DNA from: a virus
DNA: 64,000 nt
IMG/VR virus record: IMGVR_UViG_3300045988_067909
Reading direction: 5' to 3' (one strand)
Position numbers and translations under genes: made by a program. The notes beneath the pieces are model-generated. The model was not told where the DNA came from. It worked only from the letters and a program-made list of their open reading frames with translations, and did not search any database. Shown here piece by piece: positions 3,909 through 46,746 of the stretch; the first letter of the stretch is position 1, and every line of letters begins with the position of its first letter.

Positions 3909-3950
3909 CCCCTATAGGATTATGAGTCCTATAGGGGTTCTTTCTGCTTT
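3909..3950. terminator. Bidirectional intrinsic-terminator-like hairpin CCCCTATAGG-loop-CCTATAGGGG
   Basis: 10-bp GC-flanked stem with T-rich tracts on both sides (TTCTTTCTGCTTTT on the plus strand; ATCTTTATTTTTGAG on the minus-strand reading). It belongs to a recurrent stem family in this window. Confidence 0.5.
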
Positions 3951-4011
3951 TAATAAATTATTACTAGATAAACAAGTTATTAATCTTATATAGCCTAAGT
4001 GAGGTACAGTT

Positions 4012-4158
4012 ATGACTGATAAGAGCAAAAAAGATATGTTAGAAAATGGAAATATGAGCTTTATTGATTTCTTAAATCAAAGCACACCTATTGAGTTAAA
4101 TGAGTTTCTCAAATCTAAAGGGAAACGAAAAGTAAGATCAATGTTTATACGTCTATAA
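4012..4158 (+). CDS. Possible small ORF, 48 aa, Lys-rich
   Basis: ATG preceded by GTGAGGT 7 nt upstream. It lies between a terminator and the next gene. It is short and has no homology signal, so it is speculative. Confidence 0.2.
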   Translation: MTDKSKKDMLENGNMSFIDFLNQSTPIELNEFLKSKGKRKVRSMFIRL

Positions 4159-4202: not shown

Positions 4203-4733
4203 ATGAGTACTGTAAAAGAATTAATGGGACAAATCAAAGCTGAATTGAAACACGCTTCTGCTTCTAATAAAGATGAAGCACGTGTAATGGCGGCTATGCT
4301 TAATGACACTAATTTCAAAGTTGGTGTATATGATTCCACTGGTAAAGTTGGTGAAGTATGCATCGCTGATGACTATCGTAATATCTTAGCTAATGCAATC
4401 TCTTCTACAACTAAAATCTCTAAAGAAGAAGCTACTGTATTGGCCGCTGGTTATGAAGCTAAGAAAGCTGATGCTGAACGTATGTTAAACATCGTTAAAA
4501 CATTCCCATTTGAATATATGCGTAATACTGGCCGTACTTTCAAACTAGGTGGTCGTGAAAAATCCAATATTACTTTATCTTTCAAAGATGTACAAGCTTC
4601 TACTCGTTCTTTCCCTAAACAAGAGGGTATTGATAAAGATGGTAAAGCTATCTACGTTAAAACCGAAGTTAAAGTACCTGGTTATGAAAGTATTAAAGTT
4701 CAAAACCCTTGCCCAGCTTGGGTTAAAAAATAA
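4203..4733 (+). CDS. Hypothetical 176-aa protein, probably abundant and possibly structural. Monocistronic, lying between two terminators.
   Basis: Strong ribosome-binding site (GGAGGAAACAAAACATG). Codon usage looks like that of highly expressed genes. Hairpin terminators upstream (3909) and downstream (4938). Confidence 0.75.
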   Translation: MSTVKELMGQIKAELKHASASNKDEARVMAAMLNDTNFKVGVYDSTGKVGEVCIADDYRNILANAISSTTKISKEEATVLAAGYEAKKADAERMLNIVKTFPFEYMRNTGRTFKLGGREKSNITLSFKDVQASTRSFPKQEGIDKDGKAIYVKTEVKVPGYESIKVQNPCPAWVKK

Positions 4734-4937: not shown

Positions 4938-4970
4938 CCCCATATAGGCACTGTCCTATATGGGGTATTT
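4938..4970 (+). terminator. Hairpin CCCCATATAGG-cactgt-CCTATATGGGG followed by TATTTG
   Basis: 11-bp perfect stem directly after the 4203-4733 gene. Member of the CCCATATAGG stem family. Confidence 0.5.
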
Positions 4971-5018
4971 GCCGTATGTCAAGAACACACCATTAATCCA
5001 AGAAAGGAGGAATTACAC

Positions 5019-8000
5019 TTGGCAAAAGTTAAAATTACTAATTATCTAAAGAACCTTGGTAAGTCTTTAGTATTTGCTACAGTAGAAGATACTATTAAAG
5101 CTGAAATGCCTTCGGCTACAGAGTTTATGTCTACTAATGCTGATACTATGAAACAAGTATACCATGGTATAAAAGATTATAAAAGTACAGTTAAACGTGC
5201 TGGTCAAATGATCTCCAATACTGGTCTTTACCAGGCAGGGGACTTTGCTTTTAAGTCTGCTTTAGAGGATTTAAAAACTGGTAATTTCTATAACCAACAA
5301 CGTGGCGATGACTTAATGATGAAGTCAATGGGTATGGACGATTTCGATATGGATTTCGATGATGATTTCTCTATGGAATCTGATAATAAGCCTAGTCTTG
5401 ATCATGATACAGAAGCCACTATACAAACTATAGAAGCTAGTACTGCTGCTAGTACAAATGCTATTGCTGGTGCTACTGTAAAAAGTGCTGAGCATGTAGC
5501 TGGTACTGTACGTCAAAGTACAGCACTGATGTTTGCTCAACAAGAGAAACTATTCTCTGGGTTAAATAATAATATCTTAGGTATGCATGGTACTCTAAGT
5601 AATATTATGTCATTTAACCAAAATAACTTACAAGCTCATTTAGAGAACTCTCGTAAATACTTCGAAGAGTCTACTAAATTGAATCGTGAAAACAATGCTA
5701 TCTTAAAAGAAATGCTAGATATGCAACGTCATGATTTCCAAGCTAGACAGAAAGCTCAAGAAGAAGCAGCTAAGAGAACTAAAGAAAAATTTGATATCAC
5801 TAATTTGGTTGGACCAAATGGTGGTATAAATTTAGCTAGTTATTTTAGTAATATCAAGAAGAATGCTACTGATGAATTAGAATCTTCTGAACTTGGTATA
5901 TTAGCTGGAATGGAACCAGACCAATTAAAGATGATGGTAGCAAATCCATTATCTATCATTCCTATTGCTATTGGTCAAGGTATCATTGGGAAGAACGTTC
6001 GTGCTCAAATGAAGAAACTAGATAAGACCTTATCTGGTACATTCGCACATATGCTTGCAGAGCTTCATAAGGCAGGACAAGAACGTGATGGTATAGCTGG
6101 TATTATAGGTCGTATCTTTGGTGCTAAACAAGAGATGACTACTAAACTCAAAACTGACAAGTTTGAGAAAGGCCCTGTACCATTCGATGGTATTACTAAG
6201 AAAGCTATCATTGATGTAATCCCTGGTCATTTAGCTAGAATTGAAGCAGCTCTTACAGGTAATTCAGCACCAGTGTATGACTATGAATCTGGTAAGTGGA
6301 CAACTATGGCTAAAATTAAAGAACGCCGAGACAATATGGAAAAAAGTGCTAAACAAATTGGCTTGGCTGAATTTAAAAAGCAAATGGAAAAGGGTGCCAT
6401 TACTAGTGGTGTAACTAAAGACATAGACTCTATCGGTAGTAAGAAAGAGTTCATGGAAGAATTATCTGAATACTTCTTTAAGAATCAGACTTTATCTGGT
6501 TATGACGGTAAGTATAAAGATGCTGCCAATAAAGCATGGGATAATGCTGATATGTCTTTAGCTGCTAAAGAAATCCATGATGCTATGTCTAACTTTAATA
6601 GTATGATGCATTCTATCGAGAATACACCACATGATACTATGCTTAAGTTATTTGATGGATCTCAAAAGTTTGCTGGTAAACAAGGCAAAGGTGGCAATCT
6701 TTCTGGGGTTAGCTTATTAACAGATGATGATGGTAATGGAGCAATCTATTACTTAAAGAATATCTGGGAAGAACTTAGATCAATTAGAGCTGGTGCTTCG
6801 TTTGGTGGCGCTGGTAAACGTAAGAAACCTGCTAAAGCTAAATATAAGAGAGGCTCTAATACCAATAAAGCTCACGTTAGTGGAGAGTCTAAATCTAAAA
6901 GTTCTTCAGAAGATGGAGAAGGTCCCATACTTGGTACTGCTGATCAATGGGCTAATTCAGCAGATGAAGTTGGGTATGAAGATCCAGATGAGTTAAAGCC
7001 AGATCCTAATAATATCTTAGAAGAGATATTCAGTGATACTGATGCATCTGCTGCTGATAAGTTTAAAAACGTACTTAAAGCACTATATAAATCTCCACGT
7101 AGTGTAGTAGCTGGTGCTGTAGGTATGGTTGATAAGCACATCTATAAATTCTTCTTTAAACAAGATACAGGTCTTAAAGATAAAGAAGGTAAACCTATAG
7201 TTGGTTTCTTTAATCGTATGGCTTATCAATTAGATAAGACATTTGATAGCGTAGTTGATACTTTAAAGAAGAAACTTCTTAACCCTATTAAAGCTAAAGC
7301 TAAGAAAGCTTGGAAAAAAGGTAAGGAATTCTTTGGTGGATTCGTTGATGAAGAAGACCAAGAAGAGTTTACTAATACATTTAAAGATTCTAAAGATGGT
7401 TTTATTGGTTCTATTAAAGAGCAATTTGCATCTGTAAAGAAAGATATCTTTAAAGAAGATACTGAGATGAAATTAGCTTCTCAATCTAAGCAATCTCGTA
7501 GTGTATTTATGAATAAACTAGAGAGTATGCTTGATAATGCGGTAACTAAAGATGAAGCTGATAGTATCAAGAAGCGTATCAATAAAGCTAAACGTCTATT
7601 CAAAGAAAAAGAAAATGAAGAAGACAAAGAAGAAAAAGCTAAGTTAGAGCAAAACTATAATGGTACGTTAAATGTACCAGCATATTCTTTGACTACAGTA
7701 TCACCTGGTGAAGCTATTATTCCAGCTGACCAAAACCCATTTAATCCTGATAGAGATAAAGCTGATCGTAGTAAAGATCGCTATGAGGAAGATAAATTAA
7801 AACGTAAATTTATTGGTGCTGATGGTCAAGAGATTTTATCTCATGCAGACGGTACATCATCTTTTGGTAAGGCTGGTAAGTTTGCTCGTGGTAAATTAAA
7901 TGCTTTATGGAAAGATGGTTTTGGTCGTATCGGTGATATGATCAAAGAAACCCTAGGTTCTGATGCATTTAAAAACTGGAATGAAAAAGACCGTGACTTA

Positions 8001-11000
8001 TTCATGAATCCTGCTAAACTTGCTGGTAAAGGTTTAGCTGGTGGTGGTGCAGGTGCTTTAATTGGTACATTATTTGCTCCAGGTGTCGGTACTATTATTG
8101 GTGGTTTAGCTGGTGCTGCAGGTAATATCCTAAGAGAATCTGAAACCGTTAAAGGTTGGCTATTTGGTCAAATAGGTAAAGATGGTACTCGTCAAGGTGG
8201 TGTATTCTCTCGTAAGACACAAGCCTTAATGAAGAAATATCTTCCTGATATGGGTGCATGGGGTACCGTAGGTTCTGTAGCTGGTTTATTAACTGGTTTT
8301 GGTCCTGTTGGTGGCGCTATGCTTGGTGCTGCTATAGGCTTTGCTAAGAATAACCAATCTATTTCTGATAAATTATTCGGTACACAGTTAAAAGATAAAG
8401 ATGGTCATATTATTGGTCGTGCTAATAATGGTATCTTATCTAAGAAGCAACAAGCATTCTTGAAGAAATCTTATAAGACTATGCTTCCTGGTGCTTTAGC
8501 TGGATTAGTTTTAGACCCTACAGGTGGTTTCTTAACTAATATCGCATTTGGTGCTGGTGGTAGTTTATTACTTACATCTGACAAATTCCAAAACTTCATG
8601 CTAGGTAAACGTGGATTTGATGGTAAACGTCGTGGTGGTGTAGTTGGTAAACTAGAGTCTGCTCTTACTGCACCAATTAAGCTATTTGCTAAATCCATTA
8701 CAGATACCAAGGAAGGTTGGATAGGTAAATCTATCGTTAAACCAACAGCTACACTCTTCAAAGGTTTAGCTGGTGAGATTAAAATGGCTTGGCGTAAAAC
8801 TAATATCATGGATGTAATAGGAACTGCTTGGAGAAAAGCTATCGAAAAGACAGTTGGTATTCCATTTATGCATAAATTAGAAGAAAGCTTCTTAAAACCA
8901 TTAAAATCTAAAATTGGTAGCTGGATAGGTTCTATATTCAAACCAATTAAAGCTGGTGGTAGTTGGCTTAAAGGTAAAGTAGCTGCTGGATTTGGTAAGC
9001 TAGGTGAAGCTGGTGACTTACTAATTGACCGTCAACAAATGCAAGGTCTTGGTGCTGCTTTAGGTATGTCTGCTAGAGAACGTCTAGAACGTGGACAACA
9101 ACGTGGATTAGACGGATATAAATACCAAACTATGGATACTAAGTTAGTTGGTATGGATGCTGGTCAGTTAAATACTTATCGTAACTCCTTATATGCTATG
9201 CTTGATGGTGATCAAATTCATGACCATAAAGTTGATACTATTAAAGCTGCTAGAGAAAGATTCTATGGTAATAAACGTGACTTAGAAAATGGTTGGACTA
9301 AGAAAGGTGCAGATGAAATCGCTGTAGCTTTAGATAAGGGAGAACCATGGATTAAGATTAAGAAAATTATCTTAGATCATCACTTACCATCAGAAACTGA
9401 AGAGTTCTTATTAAGAGAAGCAAGAAAAACTTATGATGAAGTCACTGCAATGACTGATATGCAAAAGATTTCTGCAGAAGAACGTGCTAAGATTCAAGCA
9501 GAAACTGAAAAATCTCTTGGTCTTGAAGAAGGTGCGTTAAATTCTCGAAGCACAACTAATGATATATTATCTACAGTCAATAATGAACTTAGTGAACGTG
9601 ATGTAGATGAAACATTAGGTTCTAAAACTGAAGTTGTAAATGAAAAGATAGTTACAGCTATGGATACATCTGTCCAATACTTGGATAAGATGAATCTACA
9701 ATTGGCAAATATCGCTAGTCTTATTTATTCTGGTAAACCTATCAATGATGATATCATGAGGGAATACAATATAAATAAGAATGGTACAGCAACTCCAGAA
9801 GATGCTGCTTCTGCTGATGCATCATTACCGACAGGGTATACTAAATCTGGTGATAAATATTATGATGCTCAAGGACGTGAAGTAGTTAAAACTACTGATG
9901 GCGGTTTCAAATTAGCCGATACCGAATCTAATAGTGATATTAAGAAAGAAGCTGAAGCTAAAGAGAAACGTGAAGATGAACGTTTTGAAAAACTAGAAGA
10001 GAGCATCGATAAGAAGAATGGTAAAGATGACGATAAGAAGAAAGATAAAGACAAAGGTGGTATCTTTGGTAAACTTAAAGGTGCATTAGCTGGTCTTATA
10101 GGCCTTGGTGGATCTATGGGTGGTTTATTAATGAACCTAGGTAAAGGTGTTGCTGGTGCTGGTATTGTTGGTTTATTTGCTCCTCAATTAATTAAAGCTA
10201 TGCCTGCTATTATCGAAGCAGTAAAAGAGAATGCCAAACCTATTGCTGATTCTGTATCTTCTGTAGTCACTGAAGTCATTCCTCAAATTACTAAGAACTT
10301 ATTCCATAGTATGGCTGACTTTATTACTGACCCTAAAGTTGGCATAGTATCTAAGTTAATCGGTACAGTTGCTGTTGGTGGTCTTATGGCTAAAGCTGTA
10401 TGGCCTCTAGTTAATGTAGGTAAGACTATATTCTCTATGGGTAAAGGTCTATTCACTTGGTTTAGAGGTTCTTCTAAGAAGACTGAAACTGAGATGGCTA
10501 TTGCTGCTAATGCTATGAATCGTGCAGCTGCTGCTATGGAACTTATGGCTGCCACTGGTGGTAAAGGTGGACCTAACTATTCTCAAATGGCTAAGAATAT
10601 GGGTCTTAGTGGTGATATATCTCCTGGTGGTGGTTATGGTAAACCTGGTAAGAAAGTCCCAGGAAAGAAACCTGGTGGTCTTAAAGGTAAACTAGGTGGA
10701 TTCTTTAGTAAGTTTGGTGGACCTAAAACTAAACTTGCTGCATCTATAGCTGCTACTGTTGGTTTGGATTATGCTCTTGATTCTATGACAGCAAGTGCAG
10801 CTGAACCAGAAACTATGGATCCTAGTATGGCCGGTTACGATACAACTGGGAACGGTGATATTCCTGTAGGAGCAAATTACGATGCTTCCAGTGAGGAAGT
10901 ACAGCAAGCCACTCAAAACGTCGATTCTGACGATAAAGGTGGTTATGGTGTAACTGACATAGCTATGGATGCTGGACAATGGTATCTCACCGATAAAGCT

Positions 11001-14000
11001 GTCGGTGCTGTATTGGATAAAGCTACAGGTGGTGGTTCTACTGCAGCTGAAGCTGGTGGTGGAGCTGTTACTGATGCAGGTAAAGCTGCTGTTAAGAATG
11101 AATCCAAATTATCTCAAATTGCAAATAAGATGAGTAAAACTGCCGAATCCACTAAAGGTATTGCTGGTAAGATATTCAGCTGGGTTTCTAACGGTGTAAC
11201 TTCCATGCTTAATAAGATTGGTAGTGTTATGCCTAATAAAGAAGTTGCTGGACGTATAGCTAAGATGGCAGGTGAAGCTGGTAAACGTGTAGCTGGTACT
11301 TTGATTAAACGTGCTGCTGCTGGTATTGCTAAGCTAGCTTCTAAAGCATTAGCTGTTGGTGCAGGTGTCGGTGCTGTATGGGTAGCTTATGACGTTATCT
11401 CTGGTATCGTTGGTGGTGTATGGGATTGGTATAATATTGCTGATATCGCATATGATGCTAATGTGGATACTGGTGTTAAAGTTATAGCTGGTGCTTCTCG
11501 TACTATCAGTAATATTTGTCTTAACTTAATCGACGAACAAGATATCTTTAATGTATTGGCCGGTATATTCTATGATATGACACCATTCCGTGAAGATATT
11601 AAACGTCGTATTCAAGAGTACAATGATAATCCTGATACTCACCCTAAAGGTGCTCCATCTAAAATCTCTACAGCTAAAGAATACAATGATATCTTTGCTA
11701 AAGGACTTTGGGATAAAGCTAAAGAAACTGCTAAAGATGTCAAAGACTGGGTTAGCGATAAAATCGATAGTGCTAAAGAAACAGTTAAAAGTGTAGCTGC
11801 TAATCTAGCTGGTAAAGCATCCAACGAAGCTCAATATGTATGGAATAAAGCTAAAGATGTAGCATCTTCGGCAACTAACGCTATAGGTAACGAGCTATTA
11901 TATATTGGTGGTAAAGCTATGACTGGTGTCGAATGGTTATCAGCCAAAGCTCAACCAATCTTAACCATGTTTGGTAAAGCTGGTGAATTAGTAGTTAACG
12001 GTATGAAAGCTGTCGGTATTACAGTAAAAGACACTGTCGGTAAAGTTACAGGATTCTTAGGTGATATGGTACAAGGCGCAAACCAATGGCTCAAATCCAA
12101 AGGTATTGATATTGGAGCTATTCCTGGTAAAGTAACTCAAGCTGCTGGTGATGCTTGGTCATTCTTGAAAACTGGTGCTAGTACTATAGCTGATAAAGTT
12201 TCTAATGAGTATACCTATGTAAAAAATGGTATAGCTAATAACTTAACTTGGGCTAAGAATGGTCTAATGTCTATTGGCCAAGGTATAGCAGACCGTATAG
12301 GTGGTAACCAAACATCTAAAACAGGTCAAAGTAAATATGGTCGTGGTGCTTTCTTTAAACAAAACGATCCATTATTTGCTAACTTACCATATCAAAACTC
12401 TACTGAGTCTACTGGACAAACAATTGGTGATTCTGGTTGTGGTCCTATAGCTGGTGTTAATGCTATTATAGCAGCTAAACATGGTATGGGTGGTGCTGAT
12501 CCTGTATCTGCAGTAAATTATGCTGCTAAGAATGGTTATAAAGAAACTAATGATGGTACTAAACCTGGATTCTTTAAATCATATGCTAAATCCCAAGGTA
12601 TGGATGCAGATAACTTGTCTAAATCCAATGTAGCTGATAGCTTAATGAGTGGTGGTTCGGTTGTATTATCAGGTAAAAGCCGTAATGGTAAATTATCATC
12701 TGATCATCCATTTGGTCCTAACCCTCACTATGTAACTGCTACAGACTATGATGCTAAGTCTAAAACTGTAACTATCCAAGACCCTGAAGAACCTGGCGAT
12801 AACTATAGATACCCTATTGGAAGTGTATTGAATAATACTGATACCGCTATTGGTATTAGTAAACGTGGACGTTCTAAGAATACTCTTCGTCGCTTAGGAC
12901 ACGGTAAATGGGGTATGGGTAGAACATTCGTTCCTCGTTGGGGCCATGGTAAGTTCGGCAGAGGTGATGGTGGTGCTGGTCCACAAATTCTTCAAATGCT
13001 TACACAGTTAGGATTTAATAAGATTGCTGCTTGTGGTATCCTTGGTAACATGATGCAAGAATCTAAATTATATCCTGATATTGTTGAGGGTGGTAGTCAT
13101 GCTCCAGAAATTAGTGTAGATGGTGCTACAGGTTATGGTTTATGCCAATGGACAGATGCTGGTCGCCAACAAGGATTGGCTGATTTCGCTAAATCTAACG
13201 GTAAATCCTCATCTGACCCAGGCGTACAGTGCTCTTACATTGCTCAAGAATGTAATAAAATGGGTATTACTACTAGCTTGAATGATTGTGCTAGTGCATC
13301 CGATGCAGCATACTTATTCCATAAAGAATATGAAATATCTTCTGATAGTAAAGAAGCAATACAAAGTCGTCTAGACTGGGCTGAAGAAGCTTATGCTAAC
13401 GATGGTGCAATAGCTGGTTCTAATGGTAACCTTTCCTCTAGTGGTGTTATCGGCGGAGCTGCTGGTGGAGCCGGTGGTGGTCAACAAGGTAACTTATTGA
13501 TGAAAGCTATCTTTGGTGATGCTGGTGATAAGATTACTCAAGCTTATAATGCTTTCTTCGGTTCTCCTGGTGGTGGAGCCGGTGGTGGTATGTCTGGTGG
13601 TGTAGTTGGTAGTGGTAATACTAAAGCCGCATCTAACTGGGCAGACTCTATGGTTAATAGCCAAGGGTATGGTAATAACGGTTGTAGTACATTCGTTAAT
13701 AAATACCTAGAGCAAGCTGGTGTAAAACAAATCAATATGTACGTTCCGACTGCAGAAGAAGAGGCTAAACAAAACAAGCCTTACTCATTTAAACCTGCAT
13801 CTGCTGGCGGTAATGAAGGTGACGTAGCGTTAATAAATACTTTGACTAGCGATGCTGAGGCTGACCATGTAGTTATCGCTGACGGTAAAGGTGGTTATTG
13901 GGGTAACTCTTCCAGTAAAAATCTTATCGTTAAAGGTGATATTGCTAACGACTTCGGTGCTGAGAATATCAATGGTTATATCGCTACTGGTGGTGATGGA

Positions 14001-14609
14001 CAAGGTGCTGTTGCTACAGGTAGTGCTACAAGATCTCAAGCGGATATTCTTAGAGACTCTTCATTGGATTATGGTGCTGGTAAATACGGTAGAGCTAAAG
14101 GTATCAGTAAATCTAAACAAATTAAGATTGAAGGTAATGCTGCGGTTAAAGCGGCAGCTGCTTATGCTAAACAGCAAAAGAAATCTAAATTTGGTAAAGG
14201 TTCTGGTATCTGGGATGCTGTATTGTCTGGTGTATCTTCATACTATACACAAAAACAAGCATCTCAATCTACAGGAGATACAGCTAATATCAATGTGACA
14301 CAAACACCAGCTACTGGTAGTTTAACACCAGAGCAAATCATGCAGTTATTACAAGCTATCATTTCATTGCTTGGACAAATTGCTACTAACACTGCAGGAG
14401 GTAATGCACAAACAGCTCCGGCAGGATCTCAAGCAGCAATAAACCCAGCTGGTGATATCAGTAATATCTTACAATCCGTCCAAGGATTATTAGGTCAAAA
14501 CAACCAAAACTTATTATCTAAGATTGGTGGTATGATTTCTGCATTCGGTGGTGGTATGTCTGCTCAAGATAAACTATCATCTAATTTAAGAACTCTAGCT
14601 GCTAAATAA
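5019..14609 (+). CDS. Tail tape measure protein, 3196 aa, with three embedded peptidoglycan-hydrolase-like domains
   Basis: TTG start 9 nt after AAAGGAGG. N-terminal coiled-coil and Lys/Glu-rich region. Several Gly-rich hydrophobic segments (GGGAGALIGTLFAPGVGTIIGGLAGAAGN) typical of tape measure proteins. GDSGCGPIAGVNAI...H Cys/His peptidase-like motif around nt 12420-12800. Phage-tail-lysozyme signature ACGILGNMMQES...GYGLCQWTD around nt 12980-13400. CHAP-like C...H motif (NGCSTFVN...GDVALIN...ADHVVIADG) around nt 13660-13920. Gly-rich linkers and a Gln-rich C-terminus. Confidence 0.65.
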   Translation: MAKVKITNYLKNLGKSLVFATVEDTIKAEMPSATEFMSTNADTMKQVYHGIKDYKSTVKRAGQMISNTGLYQAGDFAFKSALEDLKTGNFYNQQRGDDLMMKSMGMDDFDMDFDDDFSMESDNKPSLDHDTEATIQTIEASTAASTNAIAGATVKSAEHVAGTVRQSTALMFAQQEKLFSGLNNNILGMHGTLSNIMSFNQNNLQAHLENSRKYFEESTKLNRENNAILKEMLDMQRHDFQARQKAQEEAAKRTKEKFDITNLVGPNGGINLASYFSNIKKNATDELESSELGILAGMEPDQLKMMVANPLSIIPIAIGQGIIGKNVRAQMKKLDKTLSGTFAHMLAELHKAGQERDGIAGIIGRIFGAKQEMTTKLKTDKFEKGPVPFDGITKKAIIDVIPGHLARIEAALTGNSAPVYDYESGKWTTMAKIKERRDNMEKSAKQIGLAEFKKQMEKGAITSGVTKDIDSIGSKKEFMEELSEYFFKNQTLSGYDGKYKDAANKAWDNADMSLAAKEIHDAMSNFNSMMHSIENTPHDTMLKLFDGSQKFAGKQGKGGNLSGVSLLTDDDGNGAIYYLKNIWEELRSIRAGASFGGAGKRKKPAKAKYKRGSNTNKAHVSGESKSKSSSEDGEGPILGTADQWANSADEVGYEDPDELKPDPNNILEEIFSDTDASAADKFKNVLKALYKSPRSVVAGAVGMVDKHIYKFFFKQDTGLKDKEGKPIVGFFNRMAYQLDKTFDSVVDTLKKKLLNPIKAKAKKAWKKGKEFFGGFVDEEDQEEFTNTFKDSKDGFIGSIKEQFASVKKDIFKEDTEMKLASQSKQSRSVFMNKLESMLDNAVTKDEADSIKKRINKAKRLFKEKENEEDKEEKAKLEQNYNGTLNVPAYSLTTVSPGEAIIPADQNPFNPDRDKADRSKDRYEEDKLKRKFIGADGQEILSHADGTSSFGKAGKFARGKLNALWKDGFGRIGDMIKETLGSDAFKNWNEKDRDLFMNPAKLAGKGLAGGGAGALIGTLFAPGVGTIIGGLAGAAGNILRESETVKGWLFGQIGKDGTRQGGVFSRKTQALMKKYLPDMGAWGTVGSVAGLLTGFGPVGGAMLGAAIGFAKNNQSISDKLFGTQLKDKDGHIIGRANNGILSKKQQAFLKKSYKTMLPGALAGLVLDPTGGFLTNIAFGAGGSLLLTSDKFQNFMLGKRGFDGKRRGGVVGKLESALTAPIKLFAKSITDTKEGWIGKSIVKPTATLFKGLAGEIKMAWRKTNIMDVIGTAWRKAIEKTVGIPFMHKLEESFLKPLKSKIGSWIGSIFKPIKAGGSWLKGKVAAGFGKLGEAGDLLIDRQQMQGLGAALGMSARERLERGQQRGLDGYKYQTMDTKLVGMDAGQLNTYRNSLYAMLDGDQIHDHKVDTIKAARERFYGNKRDLENGWTKKGADEIAVALDKGEPWIKIKKIILDHHLPSETEEFLLREARKTYDEVTAMTDMQKISAEERAKIQAETEKSLGLEEGALNSRSTTNDILSTVNNELSERDVDETLGSKTEVVNEKIVTAMDTSVQYLDKMNLQLANIASLIYSGKPINDDIMREYNINKNGTATPEDAASADASLPTGYTKSGDKYYDAQGREVVKTTDGGFKLADTESNSDIKKEAEAKEKREDERFEKLEESIDKKNGKDDDKKKDKDKGGIFGKLKGALAGLIGLGGSMGGLLMNLGKGVAGAGIVGLFAPQLIKAMPAIIEAVKENAKPIADSVSSVVTEVIPQITKNLFHSMADFITDPKVGIVSKLIGTVAVGGLMAKAVWPLVNVGKTIFSMGKGLFTWFRGSSKKTETEMAIAANAMNRAAAAMELMAATGGKGGPNYSQMAKNMGLSGDISPGGGYGKPGKKVPGKKPGGLKGKLGGFFSKFGGPKTKLAASIAATVGLDYALDSMTASAAEPETMDPSMAGYDTTGNGDIPVGANYDASSEEVQQATQNVDSDDKGGYGVTDIAMDAGQWYLTDKAVGAVLDKATGGGSTAAEAGGGAVTDAGKAAVKNESKLSQIANKMSKTAESTKGIAGKIFSWVSNGVTSMLNKIGSVMPNKEVAGRIAKMAGEAGKRVAGTLIKRAAAGIAKLASKALAVGAGVGAVWVAYDVISGIVGGVWDWYNIADIAYDANVDTGVKVIAGASRTISNICLNLIDEQDIFNVLAGIFYDMTPFREDIKRRIQEYNDNPDTHPKGAPSKISTAKEYNDIFAKGLWDKAKETAKDVKDWVSDKIDSAKETVKSVAANLAGKASNEAQYVWNKAKDVASSATNAIGNELLYIGGKAMTGVEWLSAKAQPILTMFGKAGELVVNGMKAVGITVKDTVGKVTGFLGDMVQGANQWLKSKGIDIGAIPGKVTQAAGDAWSFLKTGASTIADKVSNEYTYVKNGIANNLTWAKNGLMSIGQGIADRIGGNQTSKTGQSKYGRGAFFKQNDPLFANLPYQNSTESTGQTIGDSGCGPIAGVNAIIAAKHGMGGADPVSAVNYAAKNGYKETNDGTKPGFFKSYAKSQGMDADNLSKSNVADSLMSGGSVVLSGKSRNGKLSSDHPFGPNPHYVTATDYDAKSKTVTIQDPEEPGDNYRYPIGSVLNNTDTAIGISKRGRSKNTLRRLGHGKWGMGRTFVPRWGHGKFGRGDGGAGPQILQMLTQLGFNKIAACGILGNMMQESKLYPDIVEGGSHAPEISVDGATGYGLCQWTDAGRQQGLADFAKSNGKSSSDPGVQCSYIAQECNKMGITTSLNDCASASDAAYLFHKEYEISSDSKEAIQSRLDWAEEAYANDGAIAGSNGNLSSSGVIGGAAGGAGGGQQGNLLMKAIFGDAGDKITQAYNAFFGSPGGGAGGGMSGGVVGSGNTKAASNWADSMVNSQGYGNNGCSTFVNKYLEQAGVKQINMYVPTAEEEAKQNKPYSFKPASAGGNEGDVALINTLTSDAEADHVVIADGKGGYWGNSSSKNLIVKGDIANDFGAENINGYIATGGDGQGAVATGSATRSQADILRDSSLDYGAGKYGRAKGISKSKQIKIEGNAAVKAAAAYAKQQKKSKFGKGSGIWDAVLSGVSSYYTQKQASQSTGDTANINVTQTPATGSLTPEQIMQLLQAIISLLGQIATNTAGGNAQTAPAGSQAAINPAGDISNILQSVQGLLGQNNQNLLSKIGGMISAFGGGMSAQDKLSSNLRTLAAK

Positions 14610-14662
14610 GTTTTGTTGTAAATTATTACAATACTAACAAATTCAGTAATTGTATATCTCAT

Positions 14663-14720
14663 ATATGGGTAGGGTATCTACTATTATTCTACCCATATAC
14701 TACTTTTGTAACTTTTTACA
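14663..14720 (+). terminator. Hairpin TATATGGGTAG-loop-CTACCCATATA followed by a T-rich tract
   Basis: 11-bp stem 54 nt after the tape-measure stop, followed by CTACTTTTGTAACTTTTTAC. The ATGGGTAG/CTACCCAT stem recurs at 30352 and 59413. Confidence 0.55.
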
Positions 14721-14842
14721 AGCTACATAACAAAAAAATACAATCTTCTAAGATAATCGTTATAGAATATGGTATTCATATTCTACGATGGAGCCTGTCT
14801 CAAAGAATAACTGTCCACGTTAATCATTATTATCTTAGAGCT

Positions 14843-15075
14843 GGGCGAAAATATTAAAGTATTTATGTATTTTCTCCCCCACTTGTCCACTGCTCTCAAG
14901 CGTCTTATTCTCCTTTTGTCTCCTGGAAAAACACATGTTTTTCATGGGGGAGAGAGGGAGGTAGGGGGCTTGGGGGTGGTGGGCAAGTGGGGGAAGAAAA
15001 TACGTAAGTATTTTCGAGCGGCCTTGAAAGCCGGGCGAGAAAATACTTACGTATTTTCTAAAAATTTTTTATTGA
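14843..15075 (+). ncRNA. Candidate structured RNA or regulatory element. A long G-rich imperfect hairpin (14867-15003) followed by two 20-nt perfect palindromes.
   Basis: The pyrimidine-rich arm (TTTTCTCCCCCACTTGTCCACTGCTCTCAAGCGTC...) pairs with the purine-rich arm (...GGGGGCTTGGGGGTGGTGGGCAAGTGGGGGAAGAAAATAC) over about 48-58 bp. Many pairs are G.U wobbles, which form only in the plus-strand transcript. The apex loop is AAAAACACATGTTTTT. GC content here is far above the roughly 35% of the window. The element ends in the T-run at 15065-15070. Confidence 0.35.
14996..15058. promoter_or_regulatory. Two copies of the 20-nt palindrome GAAAATAC-N4-GTATTTTC (14996-15015 and 15039-15058) flanking a 23-nt GC-rich mini-hairpin spacer
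   Basis: Copy 2 is the exact reverse complement of copy 1. A third, degenerate copy (GAAAATA-N14-TATTTTC) lies at 14847-14875. The repeats look operator-like, or form a large stem-loop immediately before a T-run. Confidence 0.4.
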
Positions 15076-15179
15076 AAAAGATAAAAAATGTAGTATAAAA
15101 TTAGTACAAAATATAGAAAAAGTATAAACCTCTATAGTATATAAAATAAGCTACTGTATATAAAATTATTACAAAGAAA

Positions 15180-15208
15180 CTCAGATAGAATAATATATTC
15201 TATCTGAG
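15180..15208. repeat. Perfect 29-nt palindrome CTCAGATAGAATAATATATTCTATCTGAG
   Basis: Seen directly. It lies in a non-coding region that also carries GTATATAAAAT direct repeats (15137-15165). Confidence 0.6.
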
Positions 15209-15542
15209 ATAATTTTTCTATATAGAAGATAAAATAAAACTCTCTATAGAAAGAAAGTGTATATACTCTACTCAGGAGATAAACAAACTACTTCTATTTT
15301 GTAGAGTATCATAATACTTAGGAAATTATATAAGGGTGGACTTACGTCGAGTCGCAGCTTCTAAGGCTGCTCCTCTCCTAGTCCACCATTATCTAATTAT
15401 CTTAAGTAGTATCATGATCTATTTTTTACTTTATGCTGACGCAGTTAAATTATATAACTATAGGGGTAAACAGTTTGTCTCTGTAGCAACTAATTATTAT
15501 ATAAGCAAAAATTATTCTACACAAAGAAAGGATATTCTAATT

Positions 15543-16445
15543 ATGCAATTTGATTATGAGATTCTAGATAGAATAGAATTAGATAGACCAATGATTATTG
15601 TATTCGAAGGAGTAGATGGAAGTTTTAAGAATACTCAAGCTAATCTACTAATGGATTATATCGAAGAGAATATTACAAGCAAAGTAGTTATGTTTCAGTT
15701 TCCTAACTATGGTAGTCCATCCAGTTATAATCTAACAGATTATTTCAAATCTAGTAAGCTATACAAATCTGAAGATAACTTCGAGTATGTAATCAGTCCA
15801 TTAGCAGAGTCTGCATTATTCATTACAGATATCTTCACTACGTTTAATAGTAAACAAGAACTAGATAACGTACGTACATTCTTTAATGATAACTATATTA
15901 TCATTATGGACAGATACTTCTATTCAAATATCTATTACCAATTAGCTAAACGTGTAGTAAGCAAGATGAAGCATATGCCTAGTGGATATTTGAGTTCAGT
16001 TAAATATAAAGAATCCCAAGGAATAGATTTCTCCATTATGAAAGAGATGGTAAAGAAACTAGCAGATGGATTCTTATTACCTAAAGCAGACTTAATCTTT
16101 AAGATGCATTACAAAGATACTAGTGTATTGAAAGAGACTATCGAAGCAAGGGCTAAAGAACAGACTGACCGTAATGATGAAATTAATGATGGTCAATATA
16201 CGATGCTAGATATAGCAAATGATATCTTAGCTAGATCTTTATTAGATGAAGAGCAATGTTTAGAATCCAAAGAAACAGATGTAGTCGTAGATATCCAACG
16301 AATGGATATGGAATCATCTAAGATTGTATACAGAACCAAAGAAGATATTAACAATGAAATCGTTAAAGTATTCTTAGAAAGAATTGGACAAGATGAAGAT
16401 ACTAAAGAAGATACAGAACTTAATGTCCACCAAGGAGAAGAATAG
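15543..16445 (+). CDS. Thymidylate kinase or dNMP kinase-like protein with a degenerate P-loop
   Basis: IVFEGVDGSFKNTQ aligns to the thymidylate-kinase P-loop (IVIEGLEGAGKTT), but GK[ST] is replaced by FKN. KVVMFQFPNYGSPSS matches the TxEPGG region. MDRYFYSNIYYQ matches DRhxxSSxAYQ. PKADLIF matches the LID segment PDLTLYLD. ATG at 15543 follows AAAGGA. The in-frame upstream extension back to the GTG at 15336 has no kinase homology. Confidence 0.55.
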   Translation: MQFDYEILDRIELDRPMIIVFEGVDGSFKNTQANLLMDYIEENITSKVVMFQFPNYGSPSSYNLTDYFKSSKLYKSEDNFEYVISPLAESALFITDIFTTFNSKQELDNVRTFFNDNYIIIMDRYFYSNIYYQLAKRVVSKMKHMPSGYLSSVKYKESQGIDFSIMKEMVKKLADGFLLPKADLIFKMHYKDTSVLKETIEARAKEQTDRNDEINDGQYTMLDIANDILARSLLDEEQCLESKETDVVVDIQRMDMESSKIVYRTKEDINNEIVKVFLERIGQDEDTKEDTELNVHQGEE

Positions 16446-19777: not shown

Positions 19778-20566
19778 GTGTTTGATATTTACGACCCAAG
19801 AACTTTGAACTTATTTACTGATGCATCTGTCAATAAGAAGAGTCATACTAAACAGAATAACGATGTAGTCGCAGGATGTCTACCATTATTCTACTCTGAC
19901 CAGATGCAATATCTCGATAGATGTGGAAAATTTTGGATGTTAGAACCAACCTATCAGTATATACGTAAGACAACTAATAACTATGGTGAGCTATATGGTC
20001 TTCTTTTAGCCTTTATGTATATAGAGCAAATGACTACAGGAAGACAAGTATGTCCATTTACCACATTTAATATCTTTAGTGATAGTAAGATTAGTGTATG
20101 TGCTCTTCGTGATTGGCTACCAGGTTGGTTAAGAAACATGGATGAGAATGGTATTATGTATAACTCATCTGGAATTCCTGTAGCAAATCAAAGTCTTTAT
20201 CATCATATCTTAGCAGTTATATCTAATATACCTGATTGGGTAAATATTAGAATATCCCACATCAATGGGCATATAGATACAAGAAAATTATTGCATATTA
20301 AGAAAGCCTATAATAACTTTTTGAATTCTAATAGCTATAATCAAGAATTTGTATCATTTAAAGAGTACTTTGAATTGGCTGATGATTTACATAAAGCCAA
20401 TAATTATATCGATAATTACACTAGACAGATGCTATACAATAGTAATAGTACTGGTGTATATGGTAGACGTATAGAAGCAAATATGCCTATTATAACTGAA
20501 AGATACCCATACCCAGACTTCAGAAGAATATCAAAGATATTTAGTTTTAAATATAGTAATCTTTGA
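19778..20566 (+). CDS. RNase H-like protein
   Basis: LFTDASV matches the RNase H motif (TDGS). TTNNYGELYGLLLAFMY matches TNNRAEL...A. IFSDSKISVCAL matches the STDSQYV region. ISHINGHIDTRKL matches the WVKGH region. GTG start 9 nt after AAAGGGGGTG. Confidence 0.5.
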   Translation: MFDIYDPRTLNLFTDASVNKKSHTKQNNDVVAGCLPLFYSDQMQYLDRCGKFWMLEPTYQYIRKTTNNYGELYGLLLAFMYIEQMTTGRQVCPFTTFNIFSDSKISVCALRDWLPGWLRNMDENGIMYNSSGIPVANQSLYHHILAVISNIPDWVNIRISHINGHIDTRKLLHIKKAYNNFLNSNSYNQEFVSFKEYFELADDLHKANNYIDNYTRQMLYNSNSTGVYGRRIEANMPIITERYPYPDFRRISKIFSFKYSNL

Positions 20567-44532: not shown

Positions 44533-44611
44533 TATATAGCCTCCTTTCACCAATTTACTACTATGTTTCAACAGTACTATAATCGTTGACTATAGGAGGT
44601 TAATAATAACT

Positions 44612-45169: not shown

Positions 45170-45177
45170 TCTATATC

Positions 45178-45612: not shown

Positions 45613-45704
45613 GAAAGATATAAGCCCTAATGGTTATATGCCATTAGGGCCATCTTTTGGCTTACTTGAACATCCCAGTAATTCTAAAATAGGAGGTTAA
45701 AACT

Positions 45705-46736: not shown

Positions 46737-46746
46737 GAGGTTTATT

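What the first reader, a model, noticed from the sequence alone, without database searches (positions are those of the whole stretch)
5019..14609. Exceptionally long (3196 aa) tape-measure-like protein carrying three cell-wall-hydrolase modules
If this is a siphovirus-type ruler at about 0.15 nm per residue, it predicts a tail of roughly 450-480 nm, which would be very long. Alternatively it is an ejected multi-domain virion protein. The C-terminal third concatenates a Cys/His peptidase-like domain, a phage-tail-lysozyme domain and a CHAP domain, separated by Gly-rich linkers. This is a multi-enzyme cell-wall-penetration device. No chaperone (G/GT-like) genes precede it, and the frameshift-containing pair usually seen upstream of tape-measure genes is absent.
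Basis: partly seen in the sequence, partly recalled or inferred. Interest (0 to 1): 0.55.

Follow-up and report, generated by a model that had tools for sequence, protein, structure and literature searches.

The report
Jumbo-phage tail tape-measure protein with lysin cassettes
This 3196-residue gene is the counterpart, in an uncultured ~260-kb jumbo contractile-tailed phage, of the giant tail protein known from phiKZ (gp181), SPN3US (gp239), AR9 and phiR1-37; it carries three exchangeable cell-wall-cutting enzyme modules near its end, so it is an ordinary member of a very large and poorly described family rather than an exceptional oddity.

Summary
The ORF is real: 5019-14609 on the + strand, 3196 aa, with a TTG start 8 nt after AAAGGAGG. 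Its N-terminal ~570 aa are collinear with AR9 g204, phiR1-37 g083 and Fusobacterium phage JD-Fnp1_176. By profile they also match phiKZ gp181, which is collinear with SPN3US gp239, a protein lost from tailless mutants. A conserved neighbour gene (gp182-like, beside RusA) and the order giant gene, thymidylate kinase, RNase H support orthology.

All three enzyme calls hold at superfamily level. These are a C39-like cysteine peptidase (Q/C/H/D invariant), a phi29-gp13-type lysozyme (Glu invariant), and a Cys/His/Asn hydrolase whose fold is NlpC/P60 rather than strictly CHAP.

The length is not exceptional. The N-module defines 1271 clusters at 50% identity, and among the 134 best-scoring full-length members the median is 3509 aa and the maximum 5883 aa.

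The virus is a myovirus relative, not a siphovirus. Four cultured orthologs give 0.09-0.15 nm per residue, which predicts a tail of about 290-480 nm, most likely near 340 nm.

Two further observations came out of the work. Modules 2 and 3 are swapped as cassettes among near-identical relatives. A delimiter motif, K-[YFW]-G-[RK]-G, marks every module boundary and is about 7-fold enriched across the family.

The parts
5003..5010 (+). Shine-Dalgarno AAAGGAGG, 8 nt upstream of the TTG start
5019..14609 (+). Giant gene, 3196 aa: ortholog of phiKZ gp181 / SPN3US gp239 / AR9 g204 / phiR1-37 g083
5019..6728 (+). Conserved N-terminal module (aa 1-570). It defines the family and always begins at residues 1-10 of homologs.
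6180..6248 (+). Signature stretch PFDGITKKAIIDVIPGHLARIEA (aa 388-410), shared with phiKZ gp181 ([20 protein letters not shown])
8019..9218 (+). Second core module (aa 1001-1400) with glycine-zipper / TM-like hydrophobic segments at aa 1009-1033 and 1084-1108; conserved in 135 of 149 representatives
10083..10412 (+). Hydrophobic Gly/Ala-rich segments (aa 1689-1798) with a weak, sub-threshold SseC translocon-like match
11334..11423 (+). Further TM-like hydrophobic segment (aa 2106-2135)
12351..12893 (+). Module 1: C39-like papain-fold cysteine peptidase (aa 2445-2625). Q2448, C2474, H2570 and D2588 are conserved in 94-100% of 116 sequences. It is a core module, present in 108 of 149 representatives.
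12984..13397 (+). Module 2: Phage_lysozyme2 (aa 2656-2793), phi29 gp13-like, with catalytic E2681 invariant. It is replaced by a divergent allele in some near-identical relatives.
13398..13640 (+). Gly-rich linker containing the conserved stretch NLLMKAIFGDAGDKITQAYNAFFGSPGGG; upstream junction of the module-3 cassette
13641..14033 (+). Module 3: NlpC/P60-fold (CHAP clan) Cys/His/Asn hydrolase (aa 2875-3005; C2889, H2950, N2963 invariant). It is replaced by a Peptidase_M23 cassette in five of the listed relatives.
12333..12347 (+). Delimiter motif copy 1, (S)KYGR(G), aa 2439-2443, immediately before module 1
12906..12965 (+). Delimiter motif copies 2 and 3, (G)KWGM(G) at aa 2630 and (G)KFGR(G) at aa 2645, between modules 1 and 2
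14082..14096 (+). Delimiter motif copy 4, (G)KYGR(A), aa 3022-3026, after module 3
14187..14201 (+). Delimiter motif copy 5, (S)KFGK(G), aa 3057-3061, at the downstream junction of the module-3 cassette
14196..14606 (+). Conserved C-terminal tail (aa 3060-3196) with the amphipathic helix IMQLLQAIISLLGQIATNT and terminal LRTLAAK; retained across cassette swaps and recognisable by eye across the family
4203..4733 (+). Upstream 176-aa gene, conserved in relatives, with no family hit; not a G/GT-type frameshifting chaperone
4938..4965 (.). GC-rich palindromic hairpin between the 176-aa gene and the giant gene
14662..14699 (+). Terminator-like hairpin downstream of the giant gene
15336..16445 (+). 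Thymidylate-kinase-like gene, syntenic with phiKZ gp188 downstream of gp181
19778..20566 (+). RNase H gene, syntenic with phiKZ gp199

Best explanation
The gene encodes the giant tail-internal 'tape measure' / virion-associated lysin of an uncultured ~255-268 kb jumbo myophage. It is the ortholog of phiKZ gp181, SPN3US gp239, AR9 g204 and phiR1-37 g083. The following is shown here: orthology through a collinear N-module, a conserved neighbour gene and conserved gene order; three catalytically intact wall-degrading modules; conserved glycine-zipper hydrophobic segments; and a conserved C-terminal tail. The mechanism is inferred by analogy with T4 gp29, lambda gpH and T5 pb2, and from the tail location of SPN3US gp239. 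During tail assembly the conserved C-terminal helix would anchor in the baseplate hub. The ~2400-residue body would fill the tube lumen and contribute to setting a long tail of roughly 300-400 nm. The N-module would engage the tube-terminating end. On sheath contraction the protein would be expelled C-terminus first. The lysozyme would then cut glycan strands, and the C39-like and NlpC/P60-like peptidases would cut peptide stems or cross-links. The glycine-zipper segments would insert into the cytoplasmic membrane to help form the DNA conduit. Modules 2 and 3 are exchangeable cassettes, presumably matched to host wall chemistry.
For: N-terminal collinearity from residue ~9 with AR9 g204 (E 2e-18), JD-Fnp1_176 (E 2e-25) and phiR1-37 g083 (E 7e-17). 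The family N-module profile hits phiKZ gp181 (hmmsearch E 1.1e-10; hhalign probability 94.6%). gp181 is collinear with SPN3US gp239 (E 1.9e-34), and gp239 is missing or depleted in tailless mutants. phiR1-37 g083 is a virion structural protein. The neighbour gene is conserved: a 663-aa protein next to RusA in relative L004 matches AR9 g205, phiR1-37 g085, Fnp 175/102, phiKZ gp182 and SPN3US gp238. The gene order giant gene, thymidylate kinase, RNase H is the same as in phiKZ. Other virion proteins in the window match the same phages. Every cultured ortholog carries a wall hydrolase 300-450 aa from its C-terminus: C39, SLT or VgrG3-like lysozyme. gp181 has measured muralytic activity. Catalytic residues are invariant across the family. 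The hydrophobic module aa 1001-1400 is conserved in 135 of 149 representatives. The cultured relatives have long contractile tails of 200-383 nm.
Against: No curated tape-measure HMM (Pfam or NCBIfam) recognises this protein, gp181 or AR9 g204. The protein has no internal repeats and no aromatic periodicity. Length and tail length correlate only weakly among the four cultured orthologs (r = 0.52, ratios 0.089-0.150 nm/aa), so a strict ruler role is not demonstrated. The older literature places gp181 in a baseplate 'cell-puncturing device' rather than along the tube. No solved structure locates any family member. The direct profile match to SPN3US gp239 is weak (E ~1e-3), so that link is transitive. 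Three folded enzyme domains per chain are hard to fit inside a tube lumen of about 4.5 nm (dimension).
Confidence: 0.72

Rival explanations
1. It is a baseplate hub or cell-puncturing device component rather than a tube-filling ruler. The protein, or at least its C-terminal third, sits at the centre of the baseplate as a needle-like lysin complex, and tail length is set by something else.
For: Reviews citing Briers 2008 and Fokine 2008 assign phiKZ gp181 to a 'needle-like cell-puncturing device' on the baseplate. Length and tail length correlate poorly in cultured orthologs. AR9 g204 carries a T6SS VgrG3-like C-terminal domain, which is a spike-associated lysin type.
Against: About 2400 residues of non-enzymatic, partly hydrophobic sequence with conserved N- and C-terminal ends is far more than a spike needs. 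No OB-fold, gp5 or VgrG spike domains were detected. The SPN3US authors classify the ortholog as the tape measure. The cultured relatives with the longest proteins (JD-Fnp1 and JD-Fnp4, 3026 and 2978 aa) have long tails of 300-335 nm, though phiR1-37 (2553 aa) has the longest at 383 nm.
Confidence: 0.15
2. It is an auto-processed polyprotein. The conserved C39-like protease is not, or not only, a wall hydrolase. It cleaves the giant protein at the K-[YFW]-G-[RK]-G delimiters and releases separate lysin modules during maturation or after ejection. This is an add-on to the tape-measure reading, not an exclusive alternative.
For: The five motif copies sit exactly at the module boundaries, where 0.12 copies are expected (0 of 5000 shuffles reach 5). 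Family-wide, the last 30% of the proteins hold 148 copies against 20.2 +/- 4.6 expected, with no enrichment elsewhere. The copy number scales with the number of enzyme modules, and the motif is almost absent from members that lack C39. C39 is the only enzyme module that belongs to the family core. The related C70 protease AvrRpt2 cuts within PxFGxW, an aromatic-Gly site, and the JD-Fnp1 domain has a sub-threshold C70 hit.
Against: There is no experimental evidence of cleavage. Classical C39 enzymes cut after Gly-Gly, which is not this motif. C39-like domains are established wall-cleaving modules in mycobacteriophage Lysin A. The motif is absent from JD-Fnp1, which does have a C39 domain, and from AR9, phiKZ and phiR1-37. 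The motif coincides with the cassette recombination junctions, which could be a different reason for its conservation. The conserved C-terminal anchor must stay attached during assembly.
Confidence: 0.2
3. It is a capsid-packaged ejection protein of the T7 gp16 or N4 type. It would be stored in the head and extruded to form a trans-envelope channel, with no role in tail length.
For: It has large size, lysin domains and membrane-active segments, as T7 gp16 does. phiKZ-type heads do package many ejection proteins (abstracts listed).
Against: SPN3US gp239 is absent from tailless, head-only particles in two mutants. The protein has a conserved tail-type neighbourhood.
Confidence: 0.04
4. One reading: a siphovirus-type ruler at 0.15 nm per residue, giving a non-contractile tail of 450-480 nm.
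For: phiR1-37 gives exactly 0.150 nm/aa (383 nm, 2553 aa).
Against: All cultured relatives are myoviruses. Three of the four calibrations give 0.09-0.11 nm/aa. About 750 residues are enzymes, linkers and anchor rather than ruler.
Confidence: 0.05

Closest known systems
phiKZ gp181 (2237 aa, virion-associated peptidoglycan hydrolase) and its SPN3US ortholog gp239 (2372 aa, 'tail tape measure protein')
   Same: They share a homologous N-module including the IPG[HY]L[AS]R signature. The gp182/gp238-like neighbour gene is conserved. The order giant gene, thymidylate kinase, RNase H is the same. A wall hydrolase is embedded a few hundred residues before the C-terminus. An amphipathic helix lies near the C-terminus.
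   Different: gp181 has a single lytic transglycosylase domain related to gp144. It has no C39-like, gp13-type lysozyme or NlpC/P60 modules and no delimiter motif. Similarity outside the N-module is not detectable by sequence. The window protein is about 1000 aa longer.
Fusobacterium phage JD-Fnp1 gp176 and JD-Fnp4 gp101 (3026 and 2978 aa, annotated 'papain-like cysteine protease')
   Same: This is the best cultured match (E 2e-25 over aa 65-573, plus aa 975-1144). The size is similar. A C39-family peptidase sits near the C-terminus. The phages are myoviruses with tails of 300-335 nm.
   Different: No lysozyme or NlpC/P60 cassettes were detected. The peptidase fits classical PF03412 better than PF13529. 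There is no delimiter motif. The gene lies next to the portal gene.
AR9/PBS1 g204 (1925 aa, 'tail tape measure protein') and phiR1-37 g083 (2553 aa, 'putative tape measure')
   Same: The N-module is collinear from residue ~9. The neighbourhood 'giant gene, virion protein, RusA' is shared. g083 is a proven structural protein, and the phiR1-37 tail is 383 nm.
   Different: They carry different single enzymes: a VgrG3-like lysozyme in AR9 and SLT in phiR1-37. They are shorter and have no C39 module.
Tape measure proteins with embedded lysins in smaller phages (T5 pb2, mycobacteriophage TM4 Tmp, Staphylococcus phage TMPs with M23 or lysozyme domains)
   Same: The same design principle applies: a long body, hydrophobic segments and a peptidoglycan-hydrolase motif that acts during entry.
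   Different: There is no detectable sequence homology outside the enzyme domains, no match to curated TMP models, no upstream G/GT chaperones, and three enzymes instead of one or two.
phi29 gp13 (tail-knob morphogenesis protein: lysozyme plus M23 endopeptidase)
   Same: Module 2 aligns to the gp13 N-terminal lysozyme, including the NMxxES catalytic motif. Variants of this protein pair that lysozyme with an M23 peptidase, the same two-enzyme combination as gp13.
   Different: gp13 is a 365-aa tail-tip protein of a podovirus. Here the modules are embedded in a 3196-aa chain.

Membership tests
Jumbo-myophage giant tail protein family (phiKZ gp181 / SPN3US gp239 / AR9 g204 / phiR1-37 g083) | Conserved N-terminal module starting at the protein's N-terminus, with the FDG-T...IPG[HY]L[AS]R signature | tested here: met
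   BLASTP E values of 1e-17 to 1e-25 against AR9, phiR1-37 and Fnp1. Profile against gp181: E 1.1e-10, hhalign probability 94.6%. 1271 family clusters.
Jumbo-myophage giant tail protein family (phiKZ gp181 / SPN3US gp239 / AR9 g204 / phiR1-37 g083) | Conserved neighbourhood: a gp182/g205-like virion protein gene and RusA nearby; thymidylate kinase and RNase H downstream as in phiKZ | tested here: met
   The L004 663-aa protein matches g205, g085, Fnp175, gp182 and gp238 at E 1e-16 to 1e-31, with RusA adjacent. In this lineage the pair lies upstream and is inverted, beyond the window edge. The thymidylate kinase and RNase H order is shown.
Jumbo-myophage giant tail protein family (phiKZ gp181 / SPN3US gp239 / AR9 g204 / phiR1-37 g083) | Peptidoglycan hydrolase domain embedded a few hundred residues from the C-terminus | tested here: met
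Jumbo-myophage giant tail protein family (phiKZ gp181 / SPN3US gp239 / AR9 g204 / phiR1-37 g083) | Physical presence in the tail of the virion | not testable with these tools
   Known only for SPN3US gp239 and, as a structural protein, for phiR1-37 g083.
Canonical tape measure proteins (curated Pfam / NCBIfam TMP models; lambda gpH, TP901-1, T4 gp29 types) | Match to a curated TMP profile | tested here: not met
   No TMP family at E <= 0.1-1 in Pfam or NCBIfam. The same holds for gp181 and AR9 g204.
Canonical tape measure proteins (curated Pfam / NCBIfam TMP models; lambda gpH, TP901-1, T4 gp29 types) | Gene preceded by a G/GT frameshifting chaperone pair | tested here: not met
   The only upstream ORF has no family hit, and no frameshift extension is possible. 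The pair is also absent upstream of the AR9, phiR1-37, phiKZ and JD-Fnp orthologs.
Canonical tape measure proteins (curated Pfam / NCBIfam TMP models; lambda gpH, TP901-1, T4 gp29 types) | Protein length proportional to tail length | tested here: inconclusive
   Four cultured orthologs give 0.089-0.150 nm/aa, r = 0.52. Measurements come from negative-stain EM in different laboratories.
Phage_lysozyme2 (PF18013; phi29 gp13 N-terminal lysozyme type) | Profile match above the gathering score and a conserved catalytic Glu | tested here: met
   97-105 bits against a cutoff of 28.2. Alignment to PDB 3csr includes NMxxES. E2681 is 100% conserved.
Peptidase C39-like (PF13529 / PF03412, clan CA) | Profile match above the gathering score | tested here: met
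   29.2 bits against 24 on the isolated segment, but only 22.5 bits in the full-length scan. The JD-Fnp1 ortholog scores 40.7 bits on PF03412. Many relatives carry precomputed PF13529.
Peptidase C39-like (PF13529 / PF03412, clan CA) | Gln / Cys / His / Asp catalytic set | tested here: met
   Q2448 94%, C2474 100%, H2570 100% and D2588 96% of 116 sequences.
Peptidase C39-like (PF13529 / PF03412, clan CA) | Bacteriocin-processing context (fusion to an ABC exporter, double-glycine leader substrate) | tested here: not met
   No ABC-transporter domains were found in the protein. The context is a phage virion protein, so the function is inferred to be wall peptidase or self-processing.
CHAP (PF05257) | Profile match for this sequence | tested here: not met
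   No CHAP hit for the window copy at E <= 1. 8 of 14 diverse homologs of the module do hit CHAP, best E 1.9e-6.
NlpC/P60 (PF00877) | Profile match above the gathering score | tested here: not met
   14.9 bits against a cutoff of 23.
NlpC/P60 (PF00877) | Papain-like NlpC/P60 fold with a Cys-His-polar triad | tested here: met
   The AF2 model has pLDDT 89.9. Foldseek top hits are 4xcm, 7cfl, MepS, LytE and CwlO at probability 1.0 and TM 0.55-0.65. C2889, H2950 and N2963 are invariant.

The most novel reading that the evidence does not exclude
The giant tail protein is a self-processing lysin polyprotein. The family-core C39-like protease would cut at the conserved K-[YFW]-G-[RK]-G delimiters that bracket every enzyme cassette. 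After ejection, or during tail maturation, the tape measure would then release a set of free, host-matched wall hydrolases. The same delimiters and linkers would serve as standard junctions for cassette exchange between phages.
Probability: 0.2. Interest if true: 0.7.

Novelty: new variant of a known kind. Interest (0 to 1): 0.42.

Why it matters
It ties an abundant uncultured jumbo-phage lineage to the experimentally studied phiKZ gp181 / SPN3US gp239 protein. More than 900 close homologs sit on contigs of about 260 kb, possibly from the human oral cavity or gut.

It shows that this protein family is far larger and longer than the cultured examples suggest: 1271 clusters, typically 3000-4500 aa and up to 5883 aa. 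Public records annotate its members inconsistently as 'tail fiber', 'endolysin', 'papain-like protease' or 'tape measure'.

The cassette-like exchange of lysin modules between near-identical proteins, and the conserved delimiter motif, give a ready-made natural toolkit of virion-associated lysins. They also give a testable hypothesis about processing of tape measure proteins.

The finding also cautions against applying the 0.15 nm/residue ruler rule to jumbo myophages.

Tried and rejected
- **Megablast against phage records** found nothing, so there is no close cultured relative.
- **PHROGs** recognised only the lysozyme part.
- **AF2 on the whole enzymatic region** (aa 2440-3010) with a 4-sequence alignment failed (pLDDT 36.7). 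I discarded the model and ran no fold search on it.
- **PDB sequence searches** with aa 1-1400 and with phiKZ gp181 found no structure beyond the lytic transglycosylase domain.
- **NCBIfam** gave no hits for the protein, the upstream 176-aa protein, gp181 or AR9 g204.
- **Internal repeats and 11-residue aromatic periodicity**, which are typical of some siphophage TMPs, were absent.
- **The upstream 176-aa protein** shows no similarity to the small virion proteins that precede the AR9 and phiR1-37 orthologs. Its role is unresolved.
- **An apparent 'ORF desert' at window 1-4100** was a false alarm. It is the 3' part of a 1445-aa minus-strand gene running off the window edge.
- **The weak SseC (T3SS translocon) and Cas_Cmr5 Pfam hits** are below their cutoffs and lie in compositionally biased regions. 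I did not rely on them.
- **The 1313-aa neighbour** (22179-26120) has no match in any phage record or family library, so I could not use it to identify a sheath gene.
- **The host hint** is one 8-kb contig binned into a Solobacterium MAG, which is too weak to use.
- **The AvrRpt2 PxFGxW analogy** for the delimiter motif is suggestive only.
- **The literature searches I ran** found no description of C39 domains in jumbo-phage tape measures; I did not search for the delimiter motif itself. The library covers open-access papers only.
Full report
**1. Observation**

The ORF at 5019-14609 on the + strand is real. It is 3196 codons long with no internal stop. Its TTG start lies 8 nt after a strong AAAGGAGG site. 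Hundreds of metagenomic relatives were called with the same start, MAKVKITNY. Hairpins flank the gene at 4938-4965 and 14662-14699.

The window has 30-40% GC and no tRNAs. It has no close DNA relative among 50,697 deposited phage genomes.

**2. The three enzyme modules**

*Module 1 (aa ~2445-2625).* This module is a C39-like papain-fold cysteine peptidase.
- It scores 22.5 bits, just under Pfam's cutoff of 24, in the full-length scan, but 29.2 bits when the segment is scanned alone.
- Many relatives carry PF13529 in precomputed annotation.
- The JD-Fnp1 ortholog hits classical Peptidase_C39 at 40.7 bits.
- Q2448, C2474, H2570 and D2588 are 94-100% conserved in 116 family sequences.

*Module 2 (aa 2656-2793).* This module is an unambiguous Phage_lysozyme2 domain.
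- It scores 97-105 bits.
- It aligns to the phi29 gp13 lysozyme domain, including the NMxxES motif.
- E2681 is invariant.

*Module 3 (aa ~2875-3005).* Pfam does not call this copy as CHAP, and its NlpC/P60 hit is sub-threshold.
- Of 14 diverse homologs of the module, 8 hit CHAP (best E 1.9e-6) and 5 hit NlpC/P60.
- A profile of these homologs finds the C. difficile NlpC/P60 autolysin 7cfl.
- A confident AlphaFold model (pLDDT 89.9, pTM 0.88) matches NlpC/P60 D,L-endopeptidases best: 4xcm, 7cfl, MepS/Spr, LytE and CwlO, at probability 1.0 and TM 0.55-0.65. CHAP structures rank lower.
- C2889, H2950 and N2963 are invariant.

For module 3, 'NlpC/P60-fold, CHAP clan' is a better label than 'CHAP'. 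The Gly-rich linkers are confirmed.

**3. What the protein is**

*Homology to cultured jumbo-phage proteins.* tblastn links aa ~370-460 to giant genes of cultured jumbo phages. These genes are:
- AR9/PBS1 g204, 1925 aa, annotated 'tail tape measure protein'.
- phiR1-37 g083, 2553 aa, annotated 'putative tape measure'.
- Fusobacterium phages JD-Fnp1 gp176 (3026 aa) and JD-Fnp4 gp101 (2978 aa), both annotated 'papain-like cysteine protease'.

Pairwise BLASTP shows the similarity is a collinear N-terminal module that starts at residue ~9 in both partners, with E values from 7e-17 to 2e-25.

*Link to phiKZ and SPN3US.* A profile of this module detects phiKZ gp181 (hmmsearch E 1.1e-10; hhalign probability 94.6%, E 6.6e-8). 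The two share the signature ...FDGITKKAIIDVIPGHLARIEA / [20 protein letters not shown]. gp181 is in turn collinear with SPN3US gp239 (E 1.9e-34). The direct match between the window-family profile and gp239 is weak (E ~1e-3), so this last step is transitive.

*Gene context.* The neighbourhood supports orthology.
- In the 86%-identical relative L004, a 663-aa protein next to RusA is the homolog of AR9 g205, phiR1-37 g085, JD-Fnp 175/102, phiKZ gp182 and SPN3US gp238.
- In those phages that gene directly follows the giant gene. In this lineage the pair sits about 7 kb upstream on the opposite strand, just beyond the window's left edge.
- Downstream, the window has a thymidylate-kinase-like gene and an RNase H gene in the same order as phiKZ gp188 and gp199.

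*Phage type.* The window also encodes a split RNAP beta subunit. Its virion proteins match the same set of jumbo myophages.

**4. Experimental anchors from the literature**

- SPN3US gp239 (259 kDa) is called the tail tape measure. It is absent or more than 10-fold depleted in tailless particles from two mutants (PMC5105663, PMC10052503).
- phiKZ gp181 is a 246-kDa virion-associated lysin with measured muralytic activity. It was assigned to a baseplate 'cell-puncturing device' (PMC5380687).
- phiR1-37 g083 is a virion structural protein (PMC4848604).
- No solved structure contains any family member beyond the lytic transglycosylase domain, so the exact position in the tail is unresolved.
- No curated tape-measure HMM recognises any of these proteins. 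The 'tape measure' label rests on size, tail association and architecture.

**5. Is it exceptionally long, and how long is the tail?**

An exhaustive search with aa 1-600 found 1271 clusters at 50% identity with E <= 1e-3, and 600 with E <= 1e-30. The match always starts at residues 1-10 of the subject.

Among the best 149 representatives, 134 are at least 1500 aa long. Their median is 3509 aa, 90 of the 149 are longer than 3196 aa, 28 exceed 4000 aa, and the maximum is 5883 aa. The window protein is therefore ordinary for its family, although it is longer than any cultured ortholog.

Tail lengths of the cultured orthologs give the following ratios:

| Phage | Protein length (aa) | Tail length (nm) | nm per aa | Source |
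|---|---|---|---|---|
| phiKZ | 2237 | ~200 | 0.089 | |
| JD-Fnp4 | 2978 | 300 | 0.101 | |
| JD-Fnp1 | 3026 | 335 | 0.111 | |
| phiR1-37 | 2553 | 383 | 0.150 | |

The correlation across these four is r = 0.52. Applied to 3196 aa, the ratios give 286-479 nm with a median of 338 nm. The best cultured match by sequence, JD-Fnp1, suggests about 350 nm.

All these phages have contractile tails. The data do not demonstrate a strict ruler function.

**6. Architecture across the family**

Using the window's segments as queries against the 149 representatives:

| Segment | Representatives with a match (of 149) |
|---|---|
| N-module | 149 |
| aa 1001-1400 (glycine zipper and TM-like segments) | 135 |
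| C39-like module | 108 |
| Lysozyme module | 62 |
| NlpC/P60-like module | 13 |

The family core is therefore the N-module, the hydrophobic module and the C39-like peptidase. The lysozyme and NlpC/P60 modules are accessory.

The cultured orthologs carry other single enzymes at the equivalent position: SLT in phiR1-37, a VgrG3-like lysozyme in AR9, and C39 in JD-Fnp1.

The extreme C-terminus keeps an amphipathic helix (window IMQLLQAIISLLGQIATNT). The metagenomic members also end in a hydrophobic-x-x-hydrophobic-A-[AST]-[KEQ] pattern. Both are recognisable by eye across the family, and the helix also in AR9, phiR1-37, phiKZ and SPN3US, but the pattern is not significant by HMM.

**7. New observations**

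*(a) Cassette exchange.* Five of the listed relatives are 85-97% identical to the window protein up to residue 2847. Beyond that they carry a Peptidase_M23 cassette in place of the NlpC/P60-like module. They regain near-identity in the last ~130 residues. Other relatives carry a strongly divergent allele of the lysozyme module between conserved flanks.

*(b) Delimiter motif.* The motif K-[YFW]-G-[RKMA], with consensus G-x-[GS]-K-[YFW]-G-[RK]-G, has these properties:
- It occurs five times in the window protein, at aa 2439, 2630, 2645, 3022 and 3057. These positions are the module boundaries. The expectation in that region is 0.12, and 0 of 5000 shuffles reach 5.
- Across 129 long representatives, the last 30% of the proteins hold 148 copies against 20.2 +/- 4.6 expected. 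The first 70% show no enrichment: 70 against 60 +/- 8.
- The motif lies within 60 aa after 11 of 13 NlpC-like modules and within 40 aa before 20 of 65 lysozyme modules. The background rate is 3.4%.
- Its copy number rises with the number of enzyme modules: 0.1, 0.87, 1.26 and 2.75 copies for 0, 1, 2 and 3 modules.
- It is almost absent from members that lack C39.
- It is absent from the cultured orthologs.

**8. Mechanism**

The following are shown: orthology to tail-located giant proteins, three intact hydrolase active sites, conserved hydrophobic segments, conserved termini, and exchangeable cassettes.

The following are inferred by analogy with T4 gp29, lambda gpH, T5 pb2 and TM4 Tmp, partly from my own knowledge:
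- The C-terminal anchor engages the baseplate hub.
- The body fills the tube and helps set a long tail.
- On contraction the chain exits C-terminus first.
- The lysozyme cuts glycan strands.
- The two cysteine peptidases cut peptide stems. C39-like domains are known wall-cleaving modules of mycobacteriophage Lysin A (PMC3314691).
- The glycine-zipper segments insert into the membrane.

The delimiter motif could mark processing sites for the core C39-like protease. The related C70 protease AvrRpt2 cuts within PxFGxW (PMC3661340). Alternatively the motif could be a structural or recombinational junction. I cannot decide between these readings with the tools available.

**9. Verdict**

The protein is a new variant within a known kind: the jumbo-myophage gp181-type tail tape measure and virion lysin. 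Its length and its missing chaperones are normal for that family.

The family's size, its C39 core, the cassette swapping and the delimiter motif are, as far as my limited open-access literature searches show, undescribed. They give the finding moderate interest.

Noticed in passing
window 1-3340 (minus strand): This stretch looks ORF-free in the ORF listing. It is actually the 3' part of a 1445-aa minus-strand gene that runs off the window's left edge. In relative L004 the gene is followed by 214-aa and 663-aa (gp182-like) genes and by RusA.
   Followed up: yes
window 12984-13397 and 13641-14033; relatives P0021, P0023, P0047, P0048, P0094 and P0059, P0065, P0090, P0109: Lysin cassettes are exchanged among 81-97% identical proteins. 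The NlpC/P60-like module is replaced by Peptidase_M23, and the lysozyme module is replaced by a divergent allele. Both swaps have sharp junctions at a conserved linker and at the delimiter motif.
   Followed up: yes
window 12333-12347, 12906-12965, 14082-14096, 14187-14201: The short motif K-[YFW]-G-[RK]-G marks every module boundary. It is about 7-fold enriched in the C-terminal 30% of family members, and its copy number scales with the number of enzyme modules.
   Followed up: partly
window 18463-19191 (+) and 35977-36663 (+): Two paralogous genes both match phrog_12252, a family of unknown function (E 2e-47 and 2e-25).
   Followed up: no
window 42487-54272: A cluster of tail-fibre-like genes (42487-44571 on the minus strand; 45705-51167 and 52698-54272 on the plus strand) shares a short repeated N-terminal motif (phrog_38707, 36886, 6907, 13589). 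This suggests a family of paralogous fibres with a common attachment domain.
   Followed up: no
window 59861-61084 (-) and 61790-63010 (+): A split multisubunit RNA polymerase beta subunit (phrog_2962, E 4e-71) lies next to a radical-SAM protein gene. The RNAP subunit is a hallmark of phiKZ/AR9-type jumbo phages.
   Followed up: partly
window 22179-26120 (+): A 1313-aa protein has no match in PHROGs, Pfam or any deposited phage genome by tblastn. It is an orphan large gene that is conserved in relative L004.
   Followed up: partly
window 15180-15208: A 13-bp-stem AT-rich palindrome scores as a bidirectional terminator-like hairpin in the gap between the giant gene and the thymidylate-kinase-like gene. 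That gap (14610-15335) is unusually long for this genome.
   Followed up: no
window 9915-10400 (aa 1632-1794 of the giant protein): A weak, sub-threshold Pfam match to SseC, a type III secretion translocon family (23.4 bits against a cutoff of 30.2), falls in a hydrophobic Gly/Ala-rich stretch. It may be compositional, but it fits a membrane-inserting role.
   Followed up: no
L009 (CALISH010000051.1); samples ERZ783839, SRR1160357, SRR1161261: The only genome-collection relative is an 8-kb contig binned into an 'uncultured Solobacterium sp.' MAG. The exact window protein occurs in at least 10 contigs, and the three shown come from three different samples. Close relatives sit on contigs of 250-268 kb, so this is an abundant uncultured jumbo-phage lineage of unknown host.
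   Followed up: partly
one search hit list (212 cultured phage records): Orthologs of this protein in public phage genomes are annotated inconsistently as 'tail fiber protein', 'endolysin', 'putative chitinase', 'peptidoglycan hydrolase', 'soluble lytic murein transglycosylase' or 'hypothetical protein'. This is a systematic annotation problem.
   Followed up: no
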